From NCBI GenBank assembly GCA_965153455.1, contig OZ234493.1, forward strand, positions 12,080,213-12,144,212: a stretch of 64,000 bases of DNA. Direction: 5' to 3'. The notes under the pieces are model-generated. The model ran no database searches. It saw only the letters and a list, made by a program, of their open reading frames with translations, and was not told the DNA's origin. Shown one piece after another: positions 2,204-58,955 of this stretch. The position numbers were made by a program, and so were the translations under genes. The number at the start of each line of letters is the position of its first letter. Within the stretch, counting starts at the first letter, position 1. This stretch comes from Sphagnum compactum (Eukaryota).

Positions 2204-2486
2204 ATGCAAAAATATACCTAATCTTCAATAAAATCCTCTAAACGAAACCAAAAATCCTTCAAGATATAATACATAATAACTCTATTATAACTAATTTCAA
2301 GTTTCAACACAAGCCAAAATTATATCATCTTTCAAAAATCCTCATATAAAAATAAATAGACCTATTATTATTATTTATTATTATTATTATTAGTATTTAC
2401 CTAGGAGCCAAAAACCCTTAAGCTACTATACTCTATACTGAATCTAAACACAATATACCCTTGCCTACCAAGGCAAGGCCAATAAG
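2204..2486 (+). repeat. Dispersed AT-rich repeat family A, copy 1 (probable non-autonomous TE)
   Basis: Shares blocks such as CAAGTTTCAACACAAGCCA and TCAAAAATCCTCATATAA with copies at 30711-31077, 31808-32149 (inverted) and 56045-56207. Confidence 0.85.
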
Positions 2487-28800: not shown

Positions 28801-30273
28801 TTTTAGGGTTAGTTTAGGTGGTTTGGGTATGGGTTGCCATTGTTAGTTTTGAATTCAGTTATTTACTTTATGCTACTTGATAATGGTCCATGATTCTCTC
28901 TTTCCTTCCCTTTACTAGATTTATTTTGTTTCCTTTTCAAAAAAATTGTGTGTCTAACACCTTCTTATGTACCAAAATAGGTTGAATTATGTGTAACCAA
29001 ATTGTGGGTTCATGTATTCTCCCAATCCATTGGAATTCATTTGTGTTGAAGTTTTTAAGTTTAGGGCAGTTCAGTATATTGGGTTGCTTCATCTCCTTTG
29101 TCACTTGAATAGTAAAGGAGGTGTAAAACACCAATTATTATTACAAAAAAAATAAATTTGTGAGGTTTCATAGTGACATCAACATTTGTCTAAGCTAGTG
29201 TTTCCTCATTGTAATTATTTTTTTCTTCATATATTTGTGGTATTTGATCATGGTTTGATGTTGTTGTTTATGGCCATGAAACCTCGTAAGTTGAAATGTT
29301 GCATCATTATCTTCAATTAGTTGGACTTGGGTTGTAGAAGAAATGTGGCCTCTATTGTTTGGATGTTGAAACCAAACGTCACCCCCGTGATACCCATTAT
29401 CAAGCATTAATTAAAGTTCAATCAAATTTTGTGTTGTGGTTCGTGTTTACTTTTTGGTCAAGATGGAAAACTAAGAATGGAATTTTATGTGTTAAATCTT
29501 ACTTATTGGGGCATTGACAATGGCAACGTATTCTCATATGAAGTGACCCCTTGGAGAACGGGTGTTTCAATGTAGTGCTCCAAACCGCAAGTATGTTAAA
29601 TCTCAAGATATCGCCAATTTACACCCAAAACATTTGTGACTAGATGATATACTTAAGGGATTGGACTCAAGTGTATTTGGCATCATTATATGTATGTGCA
29701 AGATGGATGTTTCAGTGCGGTTAGCTAGCATTATGGAAATTGTAATATGAAGCATACAATAATTTGTAAAGAAAAGTTTACACAAATGCACAATCCATTT
29801 GAAGCAATATAATTTTTGAGTTGTCATAAATTAGGGTTGAATCATGGTGTGCATATTGAATTAAAGTAGATGTTGAATTATGATTCTTCTATCATGTGAT
29901 GAGGGTGGAAAATGTCATTTTGCCAAATGACAATGTCCCCCCGATCCCTCATCACATGATAGAACATTTGTCTTAGATCCAATGAAAGAAATGCACACCT
30001 TCACATTTGTTATGTCGATCTTGAAACAATGCTTCTTCATATGCGGAAGAAATGCATTTTGAAGTATCACAACCACTAAGAAATCACCATGAGCAAGTAG
30101 ATTCAATGTTTTTATTTAATAAAAATAATGTGCATTAGGCCATCACCTAATAATCTATTGATGTCATCTCCTAAGAGTTTTTGTTGATTGATCATGGATG
30201 GAGAAACGTTATTGACCCCCCCAAAGAAGATGGGTTTAGTTGGATACAATTCTAGTTGGAGAATTTTGGGAAA

Positions 30274-31722
30274 ATGCGGGGCCAACAACAAACTAAAAAC
30301 ACTACTACTCGTAGTGTGGTTGCCTTTTACACTCCCCAAACAAGCCCGGGTTCTCACCACTTATTGGATCGAGATTATCGAACTAGCTACACATCGTCGC
30401 TACCATATGTTCAAGAAAGTTGGGAAACTCCTCCTAGTGTCTCTCATGACTTTCTAGCGGCGAACATTGTGAGGGATGAAGATTGGGATGTGCGTGCTCA
30501 TAACAAGTAAGCTCAACACATTATTGTTCCAATTTTCATGTCTAAATATGCATGGTGGCTTTTTTTTTCTTTTTTTTTAAAAACAAAATACTTGTGATTG
30601 CTTTTAATTAAAGCAATTTATTTAGTCATGAACAATGCCTTGGCTCAACCAAATTCCAAGGTCAAATGTGAATAATGATTATTTATGTCTCTTGACCTAA
30701 GTTCAACAATGGGTGCGTCACACTAAATTCCAAGGTTGCCATTTACATTTTAAAAAAAAAGGTATCTTGAGGCAAAAGATGAATTATGAAAACTCAAAAT
30801 ATTTCACCGTGCAAAAATATAATCTTCAAAATAGTCTTCTAAAATAAAGAAACCAAAATCCTTCAAGATATTATTATAACTCTATTATAACTAAAAATCT
30901 CAAGTTTCAACACAAGCCAAAATATCATCATCTTTCAAAAATCCTCATATAATAAAAATAGACCTATTATTATTATTATTACATAGGGGCCTATAAAAAA
31001 TCCCTTAAGCGATTGAGTATACTCTATAATGAATCTAAACACAAAAATCCTTTTGCCTTGGTAGCTAGCAAGGCCAATAATAATTAATTAATTCATACAT
31101 TTTCAGATTTCTATTTTACATACAAAAAAAAGGGAAAAACACTTCCAATTGCAAATTGCAGGCGCGTTAATGTATCGGAGTACATTACAGGGGAAGCGGT
31201 GGTTGTGCGATGCAATCAACACAAGTGGTTATTTGGCACGATCAAAAGGCTTTCAGCGCGAGGGGTGCGAGTATGGGTGGGCGACGCCCAACTAATGGTG
31301 AATGTTCCGATGGAATTATTGCAAACACATTTGTTAAAGATGTCGGTGTTCCTAGAGCTCACTTCGCTACCACCACAATCGAAGAAGCCTATGTTGAGAA
31401 TGGCAAGGATGGATGAATTAGGTCCAATGGATGAATTAGGACGAGCTTTGGTCCAATGTGTGCGGCCTGCACATCTCTCACATCGTCAACTTTACCAAAT
31501 GATGGGAAACAACAACAACAACCATATTTGTGTTATTTGCAGGTATTATTTAACTCATAAAATTAAGTGTTAATCATCATTTCATTAAATGAGTTGTGTT
31601 TTCTAACAATTGCAACCATCATCATCTTAATTTTAATTCCTTTCTTAAATTAATTAATGACCAATAAATTGAAAAAAAAATTCCAACTCTTCCTTAATTA
31701 ATGATGGACAATAAAATTGTAG

Positions 31723-31759
<37 letters not shown>

Positions 31760-33299
31760 CTCTCTCTCTCTCTCCATTCCTAAATATAATTTGCATCCAT
31801 ATCATTTTTGGCCTTTCCTTGGTAGGTAAGGATATTGTGTTTAAATTCATTAAAAATTATATAGTAGCTTAATGGATTTTTATAGGCCCCTATGTATATA
31901 TAATAGGTCTATATTTATATGAGGATTTTTGAAAGATGATATTCTGGCTTGTGTTGAAACTTGAGATTATTAGTTATAAAATTATAGTATTTTGAAGGAT
32001 TTTGGTTTTTTTTTAATTTTTTTTTAAAGGATTTTTGAAAGATTATATTTTTGCATGGTGAAATAGTTGAGTTTCCATATTTCTTCTTTTGCCTTAAGAT
32101 TATTTTTTTCATGTAAATGGCAAGGCCACAATAATAATGTGACACACCCCTTTGTATTGGGTTTTTCTTCCAGAGAGCAATTGCCACCAAAAGATGTAAT
32201 AAGCCCATGGGGATGTCTTCACCTCTGTCATTTGACATGCCTTCAAGAATCCCAAGCACATCATAATTTAACCTCAAATTGCCCTTTATGTGAGGAGAAT
32301 GTTGCAACCCACCAGCTCTTGGTTCCAAAGTCTCAAATCCCAACAACATCAGCCCCTACCAACATAAGTATTTTGGAACCTTGTGTTGAGCTTCCAAAAG
32401 AAGGTCCATGCACATACATGTGGAGATCTATCCAAGGCATGAGCTCCCTACCCATAGCTTGTCCCTCTTGCCATCAATCCTTGCCAAATAATAACATGGT
32501 GATGCCAACTACTACTACGTCACAAGGGGCATTGGGTCCTATGCCTTTGGAGCTAAAGGTTAATGCTCGATTCAAGGGCGATCGTGTTAGTAGCTTGATC
32601 TTGTATAGCTCTCCTTCAAGCTCCATTGATCCAAAAAATTTGGACCATGCGAACCCAACTTTCATACCCCAAGAAGGTGATGTTGTGGGTACTATTGTTG
32701 TATATAGTTCACCATCGGACCTTGCTCCTCAACCAATTTCTTTGCCTGTCAGGTTTCCCCTTGCCTCTCTCATTGACACATAACCCTTTGTTGTGATCAA
32801 AGATGTCATTAACTAAGTAGGCAATTAACCTACTTGGGTTTCACACATCAAGGAAACTTGGGTATTATTAAATGGGCAAACATTTTGTGTTTTGGTTTTC
32901 AGATTGCAAGCAATTGAAGAAGTCCCAAAGATTTTGTTACAATCATCATCATCAAACATAGATGATCTCAAGGGAAGAAGAGGACACCAAGGCATGGAAA
33001 AGGGTAGTCTATTTAACAAAGAATTAGAGGCATCCAAAATTGGACCATTCTTGCCACAACCTACTTTTGTGAACCATTTCCCTATGTTTTCAAACCTTGC
33101 CCAAAATGCTTCATCTTCCACAAGAATTTTTGCTAAAATGAATGGGGAAGATGTAAGTACATTAGAAAATTCAAATGAATTGGCTCCTGTTTGGGTAACC
33201 GTCATCAAAGATGGGCAAGATGCAAGAAATGTTTTGATTGGCAAAAAGGAGTTGGAGCAATTTGTGAAAGTGAAAGAGCTTGAATTCACACACAATTGA
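30274..33299 (+). CDS. Putative RING-H2 E3-ligase-like protein with an N-proximal Tudor/SH3-like segment, 4 exons, 529 aa
   Basis: Exons 30274-30506 (AA|GTAAGC), 31162-31542 (TTGCAG|G ... AG|GTATTA), 32174-32752 (TTCTTCCAG|A ... AG|GTTTCC) and 32903-33299 (GTTTTCAG|A). Three phase-2 GT-AG introns join four separately open frames into 1590 nt with no internal stop. The exon 2/3 join creates CVIC-x14-CLH-LCH-LTC-x13-CPLC, matching the RING-H2 consensus. The start ATG is uncertain and upstream exons are possible. Confidence 0.8.
30711..31077 (+). repeat. Repeat family A, copy 2 (intron 1 of the RING gene; left arm of the inverted repeat)
   Basis: Runs from GGGTGCGTCACA to AAGGCCAA and aligns along its length with the reverse complement of 31808-32149. 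Confidence 0.9.
31808..32149 (-). repeat. Repeat family A, copy 3, inverted (intron 2 of the RING gene; right arm of the inverted repeat)
   Basis: Reverse complement shares identical blocks AATCTCAAGTTTCAACACAAGCCA, ATCTTTCAAAAATCCTCATATAA, TACATAGGGGCCTATAAAAA and TTGCCATTTACAT with 30711-31077. Confidence 0.9.
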
Positions 33300-34597
33300 A
33301 TTGGTATTGATTTTTGTTCATATGGCAATTTTGTTAAATATTGGTTGTTAGTGTAAATCATTAACACTTTCTATCGAGTTTCATTCTCAAGGTCTGTAGG
33401 ATTCTTTCAATTTTCTATTGCACTTTTCATTGCTAATCTTTGACATGGGTTTGTGTTGTGGATGTGTTGTGATTGGTTGGCCACAAACTTAAAAATAAAA
33501 TGAATATTTTCAATATATGAAAAGTTGCAAAGTTTGTTTATGTTGACTCTTGTGATTCTTGCCACAACTCTGGACATTCTTCTTGACAAGTGCATTGGTA
33601 GAAAGCTTTGTGCACCCAAGTCTCATCCTAACCTCAATTTGCCATAGTCTTGTGTTACCCAAAATTTTGGCAGAGCAAATTGAGTTACTATGTTAAATGT
33701 CATTCCCTGCTTAAGAATACTATTTGTGGTCCACACATCATGTGAAAGAATAATCAACCATGATTTGTTTAACTAACCTCTTGCCACTATTTATGATAAC
33801 TTTAAAAGTCCAAATCCTTAGCAAAATTTTATTGCAAATCACCCTTCACACTAACTCCCATAATTAATGTTGGTGTGCAACAACACAACAAATTGTTTGA
33901 ACACTCCTATGTCCCACAAAATTTTGGAAAAGAGTCAAAAGCTTGAGGTTAATACATTTTTTTTTTAAATCCATCCATTCCAAAGGAGAAGGAAGTTAGA
34001 AGAGAAAGAAGAGAAAGGCTCACAATTAGGGGGGAATGTCCATCCATTCCAAAACCATTCCAAATCCGAAGGAGGTTGAAGGGGGGGAGGAGAAAAAAAA
34101 AAGGGTCCATGCCCCATTCCAAAGGACTAAGAGGTTGAAAGGAGAAATTTTTTGGGGTCAAATTGATGGAAAGGAGGAAAAGGTTGGAAAAGAAATAAGC
34201 AATTATTCACCCATTCCACAAGAGGAGGTTGGCAAAAATGTGAGCAAAAATTATAAGGAGAAATGATAAGTTTGTAAGTATGTTTGTGTACAAGTGGTAA
34301 AGCCCAAAGCAAGGGCATTACCAAAATAAGGGCATGCGCAAGGTGATAGTCAAATGCAAGCCCAATTTCAATGATGCCATTGTCTTTGGGCTTTATTTGG
34401 CTTGAAAATAAACCCATTGAAGTAAAGGAACAAAATGGAATTGCTTATTCAAAAAACAAAATGTGCCTCCTCTCCTTTGAGAATTTTTTTTGTTTTATAA
34501 TGTTACTTCCAAATACACTAATTTTTTTCTAGGAGGTATTTATGTAAAGGGAGAAAGTAGAACTGTAGGTAGGTACAAAGTCCTCATATACATAAAT

Positions 34598-56044: not shown

Positions 56045-56207
56045 CAAGATATTATTATAACTCTATTATAACTAATCTCAAGTTTCAACACAAGCCAAAA
56101 TATCATCATCTCTCAAAAATCCTCATATAATAAAAATAGACCTATTATTATTATTATTATTATTACCAATTGGCCATGAAATCCCTGAAGCTAATATACT
56201 CTATAAT
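56045..56207 (+). repeat. Repeat family A, copy 4 (truncated)
   Basis: CAAGATATTATTATAACTCTATTATAACTAATCTCAAGTTTCAACACAAGCC... matches 30864 onward. Confidence 0.9.
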
Positions 56208-56451
56208 GGTACTTTCATTTTTTTAATAGCCAAAAAAATTTGGTCCTAGTCCATCAAAAAAAAGTTCATCTAGGTACTTACCTCAACTTGCCTTTTACTA
56301 AAATAATAATAATTTAATAATATGGGGCGAGAGTGGCCAGTTTCCGCATACTGATAGGGTATCAAATGCGTAACTGGGAATGAAAATTTTACAAAAAGGA
56401 AATAAACTGGGACCGAAACATGCTTTCCACCAATTTTGGTGGTAAACTGAA

Positions 56452-56873: not shown

Positions 56874-58955
56874 ATGTTAGGTTCTGAAAACTAACTAGCA
56901 CTGGACCTCAAAACCAAATTCTCGGCTCCATGTATGTGAGTAACTAGACCCGGAACTGCTCTAATTTAAATTTCTAGGACCAAATTTTTTTGGCTATTGA
57001 AAAAATGAAAATAAAATAATATAGAATGAAGTAAAACTTATAGAAGGATGATTTAAAGATTTGTGCTTAGCTATATTTGGTTTATAACCAAGTTTGGCTA
57101 AATCTTTGAAGGGATGATTGCCATTTTTGGCTACAAACAAAAAAAAGTTCCTAAAAACAAAACACTGCTATGAAAGTGTGTGTGAGTTCATTATGTTTGG
57201 GGAACTTCATGGGAACACATCCCATCTTAATTATTGCTAGTTTGAACAACCCACCCACCCACCCAAACATGATGAACCTTGGGTGGCCAACAAAACTCAT
57301 ACTACCTTATTACTACTTTGGCAGCTTCGACACTAATTATATTATTTTCAAAAATGTTGAAAATTCCGAAAATATTATTTTTTCTTCAATTTTATTTTAC
57401 TTTATTTTTGGATAGAAACTATTGGGTCTTCAAGAATATTTTTTATTTTCAAAATGAGAATTTCCAAATTAATTAATTATTTAATTATTTGATCACCATG
57501 TGTTGATTATATTGGTCGCTTGTTCTTCCAACCGTGTGTCTTGTGTTGCTAACTTACATTAACGCCACGGCCCATATTTTCTCCAAATTTATAATTTAAA
57601 AAAAATCTAGACTTTGTGTTGGTATGCATCCTTATTTACGAGGGCAACTTTTCTCCAAATATTTTATTTTTTAAAAAAAAATTCTAGATTGTGTGCTAGT
57701 ACATATATACTATTTACAAGGGCTATTCGCCGCGGCTCCAATTTCTACACATTACTCCAAACAAAATCAAATGCCATTTCGGATGCACTTGCTTGTTTGA
57801 CCCACTATTAAAATTCCTTCTCTCCAACGGGCGTCATCATATACATCAGATGCGGAACCTCCCCTCCCACATATACGATTGATTTTATTTATTTATTTAT
57901 TTATTCGCACCGTGGAGTTTGGTTTCATCCATAAAATTAATGAAAATATATGTTGTATGTAATTTTTATTTTTTTATTTTAATTTTTATTGATCTAAGGA
58001 AAATAACCTTCTACATATGATGCAAAATGCATGATAAGAATATTTTTAAATGAATATTCTACTCCACGTACATGTACATGTATGCTTCACACGGAAATTT
58101 GGATTTGTTTTACACCAATGCCAATCCATTGGAATTTTGGCACATGTAAAGTTCAACCTTTTTCCATGAATATAGAAATATTTGATACGCGTGTCTTATT
58201 GTGTGTCTAGGTGCAAATTTTTGTGGTAATTATTGTAGCCACAATAACAATTTTGAAAATAATGCACAATGCATATATATATATTTACTATTTTTTTTTT
58301 ACTACTTTCTTTTGTCACAATTGTTGTGACCCCTTAACCACATTGAGCTCACAATAGCCTTATGTGTGATAGTGTTTTACGAAGCCTAAACAAAGGGGCA
58401 AATTGTGGGAGAATCAAATTACTTATATTCAAGAACATAATTCTCAATTGTATGCTTGTCACACAATTTTCTTAGTTTCATTTTACACTTATAAATACAA
58501 TTATGAAAAAAAAATCTTGTCCAATGAGATAATATTTAGATTTTGCATGTTTTAATCCAACATGTTTTTTGTTTTTTTTTTCAAGCTATAAGCTCCCAAC
58601 ATTTTAACACCAAGTGTTTGAACTTTGAAAAATATTCCCAAAAGGGTATGGAAGGAATTTCAAGGATTTGTCATTTGGATGTAATAATACCCCCCATGGG
58701 AATGTACAAAAGTAGTATATATGTTAAAGGATGATTGATCATAGTTCCTTGTAAAAAGGTCTTTTTGGCTCAAGTTGCTCCTTGGTAAATATATGATGAA
58801 TTTGGTGAAAATTGCATTGAATTCTTCTACAACTACAACAATGTTTTCAAAAAGAATAAAATCGCATCTTACTTGAACATTAGCCATGTTGTTGGATAAT
58901 TAATCTTATAATTTAATTATCCCAACTTATCACAAAATGAGCAACAATAGTGTAT

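What the first reader, a model, noticed from the sequence alone, without database searches (positions are those of the whole stretch)
30711..32149. Stop-free, phase-symmetric coding exon clamped by long intronic inverted repeats: candidate circRNA with an endless ORF, or an exon-skipping switch
Seen: exon 2 of the RING gene (31162-31542) is 381 nt (127 codons), lies between two phase-2 introns and has no stop in frame. A ~350-bp repeat in intron 1 (30711-31077) ends 84 nt before the acceptor. Its inverted copy in intron 2 (31808-32149) ends only 24 nt before the exon 3 acceptor, so it covers the expected branch-point zone. Known: inverted repeats in flanking introns (e.g. Alu pairs in mammals) promote back-splicing and exon skipping. 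Inference: back-splicing would join ...TGC AG|G CGC... in frame, giving a circle with no stop that could be translated by rolling circle into repeats of the Tudor-like segment. Skipping would instead give an in-frame protein lacking that segment and the first CxxC of the RING, so probably ligase-dead. The duplex could also be a siRNA source.
Basis: partly seen in the sequence, partly recalled or inferred. Interest (0 to 1): 0.82.

Follow-up and report, generated by a model that had tools for sequence, protein, structure and literature searches.

The report
Inverted transposon copies flanking a coding exon
Two old, oppositely oriented copies of a very abundant small repeat sit in the introns on either side of one exon of a conserved plant RING-finger gene; they could pair in the RNA, but nothing shows that they make a circular RNA or a splicing switch.

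Summary
A four-exon gene (30274-33299, +) has three GT..AG introns, all phase 2. Exon 2 (31162-31542) is 381 nt and open in frame. It lies between two inverted copies of a ~350-bp repeat that are 78-84% alike. Predicted duplex gain is -230 kcal/mol, against -18.5 +/- 3.9 for shuffles.

The arms belong to a dispersed, very high-copy repeat family. The gene is real: it has a Selaginella homologue, and exon 2 gives dN/dS of about 0.2. Three collinear metagenome loci and a second organism's contigs hold both arms at the same places, so the insertions are old.

The arms show no sign of selection for pairing. They diverge about as fast as nearby intron sequence (0.09-0.14 against 0.04-0.13). Own-genome pairing is no better than cross-genome pairing. 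53 columns lose pairing, against 3 that look compensatory.

The one poly(A) RNA run laid (12% read) put no read on any exon. So back-splice and skip junctions could not be tested.

The "endless ORF" follows for any internal coding exon whose length is a multiple of three. My verdict is an ordinary intronic transposon pair that makes a candidate for circularisation. The idea is untested and of low interest.

The parts
30274..30506 (+). Exon 1 (ATG at 30274; ends with 2 bases of a codon, donor CAA|GTAAGC)
   Evidence: No Pfam hit. Orthologous ORF kept in L002 and L003.
30507..31161 (+). Intron 1, 655 nt, phase 2, GT..AG; holds arm 1
30711..31077 (+). Arm 1: a copy of a dispersed high-copy repeat of about 350 bp, ending 84 nt before the exon 2 acceptor
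   Evidence: Summed word depth about 1.1-1.3e5 against about 40 for flanking single-copy sequence. Orthologous copies in L002, L003 and L001.
31162..31542 (+). Exon 2, 381 nt, open in frame. It encodes a small beta-barrel (Tudor-like by weak fold match), a variable linker, a conserved LVQCVRPAHLSHRQL motif and the first CxxC of the RING-H2 pattern.
   Evidence: (dN/dS 0.18-0.23). 53% identical to the S. moellendorffii protein P0001.
31543..32173 (+). Intron 2, 631 nt, phase 2, GT..AG. It holds a (CA)n(CT)n microsatellite and arm 2. It is absent from the distant relative L004.
31808..32151 (-). Arm 2: an inverted copy of the same repeat family, ending 22-24 nt before the exon 3 acceptor
   Evidence: Orthologous copies in L002, L003, L001 and L005. 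A relative's ORF call, P0008, reads through it.
32174..32752 (+). Exon 3, 579 nt (also a multiple of three), carrying the rest of the RING-H2 pattern (C-x-H-x2-H-x2-C-x13-C-x2-C)
   Evidence: Only sub-threshold RING hits in Pfam.
32903..33299 (+). Exon 4 with the TGA stop

Best explanation
Two copies of an abundant, short, AT-rich non-autonomous repeat inserted long ago, in opposite orientations, into introns 1 and 2 of a conserved gene. The gene encodes a Tudor-like barrel followed by a RING-H2-type finger.

The copies are neutral passengers. They have been inherited by several related genomes and are decaying at about the intronic background rate. Arm 2 now supplies most of the 3' part of intron 2.

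The pair can form a long imperfect duplex in the pre-mRNA that would loop out exon 2, so occasional back-splicing or skipping is mechanistically possible. There is no evidence that either occurs or has been selected.

Shown: the anatomy, the repeat family, conservation of the gene, and the age and decay of the arms. Inferred: neutrality and lack of function.
For: **The arms belong to a repeat family.**
- There are 4 copies in the 64-kb window. Arm 1 is closer to the copy at 56045-56208 (85.6% over 174 columns) than to arm 2 (78.7%).
- Summed word depth on the arms is about 1e5-2e5, against about 35-45 on flanking single-copy sequence, in DNA runs of three organism labels.

**The insertions are old.**
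- L002, L003 and L001 hold both arms and L005 holds arm 2, all collinear with the window.
- Contigs of organism B break inside both arms at the same places.

**The arms are not selected for pairing.**
- Divergence between the window and L002/L003 is 0.092-0.139 in the arms and 0.038-0.133 in non-repeat intron sequence.
- The paired fraction of the window's own arms is 0.825. The window's arm 1 with the arm 2 of L002 or L003 gives 0.855 and 0.884.
- Of 299 usable columns, 228 are invariant, 3 look compensatory, 12 keep pairing through G-U, 53 lose pairing in at least one genome and 3 are never paired.

**The gene is functional.**
- Exon 2 dN/dS is 0.18-0.23. Frames and 3n lengths are kept (366, 375 and 381 nt) and the splice sites are conserved.
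- A Selaginella homologue exists.
Against: - The pair is rare locally. It is the only long inverted pair within 3 kb in the 64-kb window apart from one 54-nt pair.
- My rough estimate of the chance per exon is about 1.6e-4. This is an inference from the density.
- The duplex is very stable in silico, and duplexes of 30-40 nt are reported to suffice for circularisation in animal systems (passage in PMC9860190).
- Both arms are retained in every close relative seen (4 of 4 loci that cover them). This is compatible with retention by selection, although also with simple shared ancestry.
- No total-RNA, RNase R or small-RNA data were available, so function is not excluded.
Confidence: 0.68

Rival explanations
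1. The inverted pair brings the exon 2 splice sites together and drives back-splicing, giving a 381-nt exonic circle at a biologically meaningful level. The circle may or may not be translated.
For: - Arms lie in both flanking introns, 84 nt and 265 nt from the exon.
- 287 predicted intermolecular pairs and a gain of -230 kcal/mol.
- No competing copy lies inside the same transcription unit; the other copies are at 2205 and 56045.
- The circle would be open in frame and has 9 in-frame Met codons.
- Maize circRNAs are associated with reverse-complementary transposon pairs (passage in PMC9860190; abstract of 10.1101/100578).
Against: - No RNA read lies on the exons in the one run laid.
- There is no co-evolution of the arms, and the window's pair is the most decayed.
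- In most plants surveyed, very few exonic circRNAs have complementary flanking introns (passages in PMC9860190).
- The open circular frame is a trivial property of exons of 3n length.
- No internal ribosome entry site is known here.
Confidence: 0.12
2. The duplex loops out exon 2 and promotes its skipping. This gives an in-frame 402-aa isoform that lacks the Tudor-like barrel and the first CxxC, so it would work as a regulated ligase-dead switch.
For: - The skip is in frame.
- Arm 2 reaches to 22-24 nt from the exon 3 acceptor, so the branch-point region is derived from the repeat.
Against: - No skip joint was seen, but no reads lay on the gene at all.
- Exon 2 is under purifying selection.
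- The relative L004 has exons 2 and 3 fused, so it cannot skip exon 2 alone, yet it keeps the same protein layout.
Confidence: 0.07
3. The transcribed hairpin is processed into small RNAs that silence this gene, or other copies of the repeat, through RNA-directed methylation.
For: - A long, near-continuous duplex is predicted.
- Depth is zero on the exons in the poly(A) run.
- Divergence in the stretch from arm 1 to arm 2 is about 10%, against about 4% in the flanks.
Against: - The extra substitutions in the centre are rich in transversions (56 transitions, 84 transversions, against 48 and 23 in the flanks). That is not the C-to-T excess expected from methylation.
- The gene's coding sequence is conserved, so it must be expressed somewhere.
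- No small-RNA data are available.
Confidence: 0.08
4. The gene model is not real, or is a pseudogene, so the exon-clamp reading is moot.
For: - Zero RNA reads on the exons.
- No Pfam family above cut-off on any exon.
- dN/dS of exons 3 and 4 is fairly high, 0.51-0.88.
Against: - The 1590-nt spliced ORF is intact with canonical sites.
- Frames are kept in all orthologous loci, with 3n indels only.
- Exon 2 dN/dS is 0.18-0.23.
- Conserved blocks are shared with a 455-aa Selaginella protein along its whole length.
Confidence: 0.04

Closest known systems
Exons flanked by reverse-complementary intronic repeats that promote back-splicing: inverted Alu pairs in mammals, LINE1-like reverse-complementary pairs (LLERCPs) in maize
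   Same: - Two copies of one dispersed repeat family lie in opposite orientation in the introns on either side of an internal exon.
- A strong duplex is predicted across the exon.
- The concept is described in PMC9860190 (passages read), 10.1101/100578 and PMC8516420 (abstract starts only).
   Different: - No back-splice junction has been observed here.
- The arms are old and 15-22% diverged, whereas PMC8516420 (abstract start only) links circRNAs to evolutionarily young elements.
- The plant lineage is one in which the review says flanking complementarity explains few circRNAs.
Rolling-circle translation of circular RNAs with an 'infinite' ORF (PMC4639774; title and abstract start seen)
   Same: A circle of exon 2 would have 127 codons, no stop and in-frame AUGs.
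   Different: - The published case used engineered circles.
- Here the circle itself is hypothetical, and no internal entry site or peptide evidence exists.
Non-autonomous short plant transposons (MITE-like or SINE-like elements) in gene introns
   Same: - About 350 bp long and AT-rich, with very high summed word depth.
- Copies are dispersed and lie in genic regions.
- An internal (ATT)n run and a short palindrome (CCTTGCC..GGCAAGG) lie near one end.
   Different: - I could define no clear terminal inverted repeats or target-site duplication from the 4 window copies and the orthologues.
- No empty site was found.
- Rfam gave no tRNA-like or other match on the arms.
- The class is unresolved.
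RING-H2 zinc-finger E3 ligases with an N-terminal Tudor/royal-family reader domain
   Same: - The C-x2-C-x14-C-x-H-x2-H-x2-C-x13-C-x2-C spacing can be read from exons 2 and 3. The consensus itself is recalled, not taken from a tool.
- The homologue is named 'RING-type domain-containing protein' by UniRef.
- The best fold matches of residues about 10-60 are Tudor domains of Pcl, PHF19 and PHF1.
   Different: - Pfam zf-RING_2 stays below its cut-off: 19.4 and 14.3 bits on homologues, against 27.3.
- The fold matches are weak (E 0.017 or worse) and rest on a model of mean pLDDT 53.6.
- No activity has been tested.

Membership tests
circRNA-prone exon with reverse-complementary flanking introns | Inverted copies of a repeat in the upstream and the downstream intron | tested here: met
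   arms at 30711-31077 (+) and 31808-32151 (-), 78-84% alike.
circRNA-prone exon with reverse-complementary flanking introns | Arms predicted to pair with each other rather than fold locally | tested here: met
   the MFE fold pairs the arms; gain of -230.3 kcal/mol against -18.5 +/- 3.9 in 30 shuffles, with 287 intermolecular pairs.
circRNA-prone exon with reverse-complementary flanking introns | Back-splice junction reads (31542->31162), or skip reads (30506->32174) | tested here: inconclusive
   neither joint is listed, but the one RNA run (poly(A), 12% read) had depth 0 on all exons, so nothing could be seen.
circRNA-prone exon with reverse-complementary flanking introns | Pairing maintained by selection (compensatory change, or slower decay than neutral sequence) | tested here: not met
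   3 compensatory-looking columns against 53 that lose pairing, of 299. Own-genome pairing is 0.825 against cross-genome 0.855 and 0.884; arm divergence is 0.092-0.139, within or above the intron background.
RING-H2 finger | Eight-ligand Cys/His spacing C-x2-C-x(9-39)-C-x(1-3)-H-x(2-3)-H-x2-C-x(4-48)-C-x2-C (consensus recalled) | tested here: met
   Read directly across the exon 2/3 junction. The same pattern is contiguous in L004 and P0001.
RING-H2 finger | Pfam zf-RING_2 (PF13639) at or above the gathering score | tested here: not met
   P0001 scores 19.4 bits and L004 14.3 bits, against a cut-off of 27.3; the window's exon 3 alone scores 11.6 bits.
Tudor / royal-family barrel | Five-stranded SH3-like barrel resembling solved Tudor domains | tested here: inconclusive
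   residues 1-60 have block-mean pLDDT of 67-82 and the rest is below 50; the top hits are the Pcl, PHF19 and PHF1 Tudor domains, with E 0.017-0.04, TMt 0.63-0.76 and rmsd 1.7-2.0 over 55-58 columns. No hit has E of 0.001 or better.
Tudor / royal-family barrel | Sequence-profile match and an aromatic cage | tested here: not met
   no Tudor-type Pfam family matched exon 2; the only hit was TubC_N at E 0.085. The aromatic cage was not examined.
MITE | Terminal inverted repeats and a target-site duplication | tested here: inconclusive
   a 9-nt motif (GGCCTTGCC / GGCAAGGCC) recurs inverted near both ends, but homology between copies extends beyond it. No target-site duplication or empty site was found.
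MITE | Short, non-coding, high copy number, dispersed | tested here: met
   The tool warns that summed word depth is not a copy number; 3382 contig pieces of X1 were laid, mostly on the arms.
SINE | A pol III head related to tRNA, 5S or 7SL | tested here: not met
   no Rfam match at E up to 1 in 30000-33500.

The most novel reading that the evidence does not exclude
An ancient inverted transposon pair, kept in at least four related genomes, clamps the Tudor-like exon of a RING-H2 gene in an early-diverging land plant. It drives a 381-nt exonic circle whose stop-free frame is translated round and round into concatenated Tudor-like units. In parallel, it titrates production of the full-length ligase.
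Probability: 0.03. Interest if true: 0.75.

Novelty: new member of a known kind. Interest (0 to 1): 0.2.

Why it matters
If the pair did drive circularisation, it would be a clean natural test case outside seed plants. The exon is small, the arms lie close to it, there are no competing copies in the gene, and a natural control exists in a relative that lacks intron 2 and both arms. That would bear on the open question of whether intron pairing matters for plant circRNAs at all.

As it stands, this is an ordinary consequence of a very abundant repeat landing twice in one gene. The data favour neutral decay of both arms.

Tried and rejected
- **Whole genome.** None is held for this window, so I could make no genome-wide count of similar exon clamps.
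- **RNA holders.** The look-up of sequencing runs listed no RNA holder. The small unlaid shares (0.16-0.18) in other runs were not used as evidence.
- **RNA run X22.** No exon reads, so junctions were untestable.
- **The 31018/31901 'opposite strands' joint.** It has 34 reads in X22, but it also stands in contigs of all three DNA runs. I read it as other genomic copies of the repeat split by the aligner at the variable (ATT)n/(TA)n run, not as an RNA event.
- **Rfam.** Nothing on 30000-33500.
- **Pack-MITE or foldback element that captured exon 2.** Rejected. The exon 2 segment is contiguous with the RING in Selaginella and in L004, and the RING is split across exons 2 and 3.
- **Intron 2 created by the repeat insertion.** Not supported. 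Arm 2 covers only 344 of 631 nt.
- **Methylation-driven mutation between the arms.** Not supported by the substitution spectrum.
- **Earlier findings of this scan.** Nothing by place or by sequence.
- **Second homologue search.** The search with the L004 ORF found only one unnamed near-identical protein.
- **Paper supplements.** Not consulted.
Full report
**1. What is there**

Reading 29800-33400 and its stop-to-stop frames gives a four-exon gene on the + strand.
- Exon 1 is 30274-30506, exon 2 is 31162-31542, exon 3 is 32174-32752 and exon 4 is 32903-33299.
- A script confirmed a 1590-nt spliced ORF of 529 codons plus a stop.
- The three introns are 655, 631 and 150 nt. All are GT..AG and all are phase 2.
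- Exon 2 is 381 nt. Closed on itself it reads 127 codons with no stop and holds 9 in-frame Met codons. The other two frames have 3 and 8 stops.
- Dropping exon 2 leaves an in-frame 402-aa product.

It carries little weight, though. Exon 3 (579 nt) is equally symmetric, and any internal coding exon of 3n length gives an "endless" frame when circularised.

**2. The arms**

- The repeat finder reported five collinear inverted segments between 30755-30956 and 31935-32109.
- Aligning 30690-31100 with the reverse complement of 31790-32175 gives 84% mean column identity from about 30711 to 31077 and from 32151 back to 31808.
- blastn gives 78.7% over 324 columns.
- Arm 1 ends 84 nt before the exon 2 acceptor. 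Arm 2 starts 265 nt after the exon 2 donor and ends 22-24 nt before exon 3.
- The minimum-free-energy fold of 30700-32175 pairs the arms along nearly their whole length.
- Cofolding the two arms gives 287 intermolecular pairs and a gain of -230.3 kcal/mol over the self-folds. Thirty shuffles of arm 2 gave -18.5 +/- 3.9. The longest exact complementary run is 26 nt.
- In the whole 64-kb window the only other inverted pair of 40 nt or more within 3 kb is a 54-nt pair at 56196/56974.

**3. What the arms are**

They are members of a dispersed repeat family.
- The window holds two further partial copies, at 2205-2485 and 56045-56208. Arm 1 is more like the latter (85.6% over 174 columns) than like arm 2 (alignment). 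This argues for two independent insertions rather than a local inverted duplication.
- I laid the contigs of three DNA runs, labelled organisms A, B and D, on 30100-33500. Summed word depth was about 1e5-2e5 on the arms and about 35-45 on the flanking single-copy sequence. In X1, 3382 contig pieces were laid, mostly on the arms. The tool warns that summed depth is not a copy number. I take it only as evidence of very many copies.
- The family is AT-rich. It has an internal (ATT)n run and a short palindrome (CCTTGCC..GGCAAGG) near one end.
- I could not define terminal inverted repeats, a target-site duplication or an empty site.
- Rfam found nothing in 30000-33500 at E up to 1.

The class (MITE-like or SINE-like) stays open.

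**4. The gene is real and conserved**

- The exon 2 translation finds a 455-aa Selaginella moellendorffii protein, named "RING-type domain-containing protein" by its source, at 53% identity over 84% of the query.
- Conserved blocks run through the barrel, an LVQCVRPAHLSHRQL motif, the RING and a C-terminal block.
- The Cys/His spacing is C-x2-C-x14-C-x-H-x2-H-x2-C-x13-C-x2-C, split by intron 2 after the first CxxC. It fits the RING-H2 consensus, which I recall rather than take from a tool.
- Pfam zf-RING_2 stays below its cut-off of 27.3 bits: 19.4 on the Selaginella protein, 14.3 on L004 and 11.6 on the window's exon 3 alone.
- An AlphaFold model of exon 2, built from a 5-row alignment, has mean pLDDT 53.6. 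Block means are 67-82 for residues 1-60 and under 50 beyond.
- The best Foldseek PDB matches of that barrel are Tudor domains of Pcl, PHF19 and PHF1, with E 0.017-0.04, TMt 0.63-0.76 and rmsd 1.7-2.0 A over 55-58 columns. No match reaches E of 0.001.

"Tudor-like" is therefore a fair but weakly supported label.

**5. Relatives: the arms are old**

A scan of metagenome contigs with exon 2 returned five loci.
- L002 is collinear with window 29500-33999 (87% over 4642 columns). L003 and L001 are collinear over the parts they cover, and L005 from the end of exon 2 onward.
- All of them carry the arms at the same positions: 3 of 3 loci that span both arms, and 4 of 4 that span arm 2.
- Contigs of organism B also run into both arms from the single-copy sides and stop there, at 30826, 31023, 31714 and 32071.
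- An ORF call in a public protein cluster (P0008) reads through the arm 2 sequence into exon 3 in a relative.
- Orthologous arms are 91-93% (arm 1) and 86-98% (arm 2) identical. Arm 1 against arm 2 is 78-85% in any combination.

So both insertions predate the split of these genomes.

**6. Is pairing selected? The data say no**

- Jukes-Cantor divergence between the window and L002/L003 is 0.092 for arm 1 and 0.096-0.139 for arm 2. Non-repeat intron pieces give 0.038-0.133.
- The paired fraction (Watson-Crick plus G-U) of the window's own two arms is 0.825. That is lower than the window's arm 1 with the arm 2 of L002 (0.855) or L003 (0.884). L002 and L003 show no own-genome advantage either.
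- Of 299 columns usable in three genomes, 228 are invariant, 3 look compensatory, 12 keep pairing through G-U, 53 lose pairing in at least one genome and 3 are never paired.
- By contrast, exon 2 is constrained. dN/dS is 0.18-0.23, all indels are multiples of three (exon lengths 366, 375 and 381), and the acceptor and donor are conserved.
- The partial list of organism B variants gives 10 synonymous and 6 non-synonymous changes in exon 2.

**7. RNA**

- No indexed RNA run holds the stretch.
- One poly(A) RNA-seq run with the same species label (X22) was laid. About 12% of it was read, 11.9 million records.
- 177 reads were laid, all on the arms. None was 99% or more alike; 25 were 95-99% and 152 were 90-95% alike. 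Depth was 0 on all four exons and on the unique intron parts.
- These reads therefore come from other copies of the repeat.
- No back-splice or skip joint was listed. With no coverage of the gene, that says nothing either way, and poly(A) selection would remove circles.
- The one frequent "joint" (31018/31901, opposite strands, 34 reads) also stands in DNA contigs of all three DNA runs. It reflects other genomic copies.

**8. How unusual is the arrangement?**

This is my own rough inference.
- With 4 copies per 64 kb and pre-insertion introns of about 290 nt each, the chance that both introns flanking a given exon hold a copy in opposite orientation is about 1.6e-4.
- That is rare per exon. 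A genome with about 1e5 internal exons and thousands of copies should still hold a dozen or so by chance.
- It should hold more if the element prefers genes. I could not count them because no genome is held.

**9. Comparison with what is known**

- The architecture is the classical one for intron-pairing-driven circularisation. In animal systems short inverted repeats of 30-40 nt suffice (passages of the review PMC9860190).
- The same review reports that in rice, Arabidopsis, soybean, bamboo, grapevine and poplar only a small minority of exonic circRNAs have complementary flanking introns. Maize LINE1-like reverse-complementary pairs are the main exception (abstract of 10.1101/100578).
- Rolling-circle translation of stop-free circles has been shown with engineered RNAs (PMC4639774, title and abstract start only).

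Nothing here goes beyond a new, untested instance of this known kind.

**10. Verdict**

The interpretation cannot be tested with the available RNA, and the comparative evidence favours two old, neutrally decaying transposon copies in the introns of a functional gene.
- Confidence is about 0.68 for the passenger reading and about 0.12 for meaningful back-splicing.
- It is about 0.07 for a skipping switch and about 0.08 for a small-RNA or silencing role.
- Interest is 0.2.

Noticed in passing
L004:455-1330 (compare window 31543-32173): In a more distant relative (62% aa identity in exon 2, visibly more GC-rich), the sequences matching exons 2 and 3 are one continuous ORF. Intron 2 is absent and no arms are present. 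The positions of introns 1 and 3 look conserved (...ACGAG|G and TGCAG|GTAC). Whether the intron was lost there or gained here could not be decided without an outgroup gene structure.
   Followed up: partly
window 30700-32200 against 30100-30700 and 32200-33400: Divergence from the orthologous loci is about 10% in the stretch from arm 1 to arm 2, including exon 2 (dS 0.25-0.32). It is about 4% in the flanks (exon 3/4 dS 0.03-0.08). The excess is rich in transversions (56 transitions, 84 transversions, against 48 and 23). Organism B shows the same trend more mildly. Part of it comes from a replaced low-complexity linker, and the rest is unexplained.
   Followed up: partly
window 29887-29968: A hairpin with a 19-bp perfect stem and an inner 8-bp stem lies about 300 nt upstream of the ATG. 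MFE is -42.5 kcal/mol for the 116-nt stretch folded (29870-29985), z = -6.1 against 200 shuffles. It is also present in L002 and L003. It may be a small foldback element or a hairpin-RNA precursor.
   Followed up: partly
window 31416-31445 and 31510-31524 (exon 2): The linker of exon 2 is unstable. ELGPMDELG in the window is replaced by Gly/Cys-rich runs of different length in L002 and L003, and the Asn run (NNNNN) varies from 2 to 5 residues. All changes are in frame.
   Followed up: yes
window 31724-31775: A compound microsatellite lies in intron 2 just upstream of arm 2: (CA)16.5, followed by a (CT) run seen in the sequence. Reads and contigs are cut there.
   Followed up: no
window 2205-2485, 56045-56208 and 56196-56249 / 56974-57027: Two further partial copies of the arm family are present. 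Next to the second one lies a separate 54-nt inverted pair, 87% complementary and 724 nt apart. This may be another element nested there.
   Followed up: no
proteins P0002, P0008, P0010 (relatives of window 31900-32783): Public protein collections hold prokaryote-style ORF calls from relatives that start inside arm 2 or intron 2 and run into exon 3. Part of each such 'protein' is translated transposon or intron sequence.
   Followed up: yes
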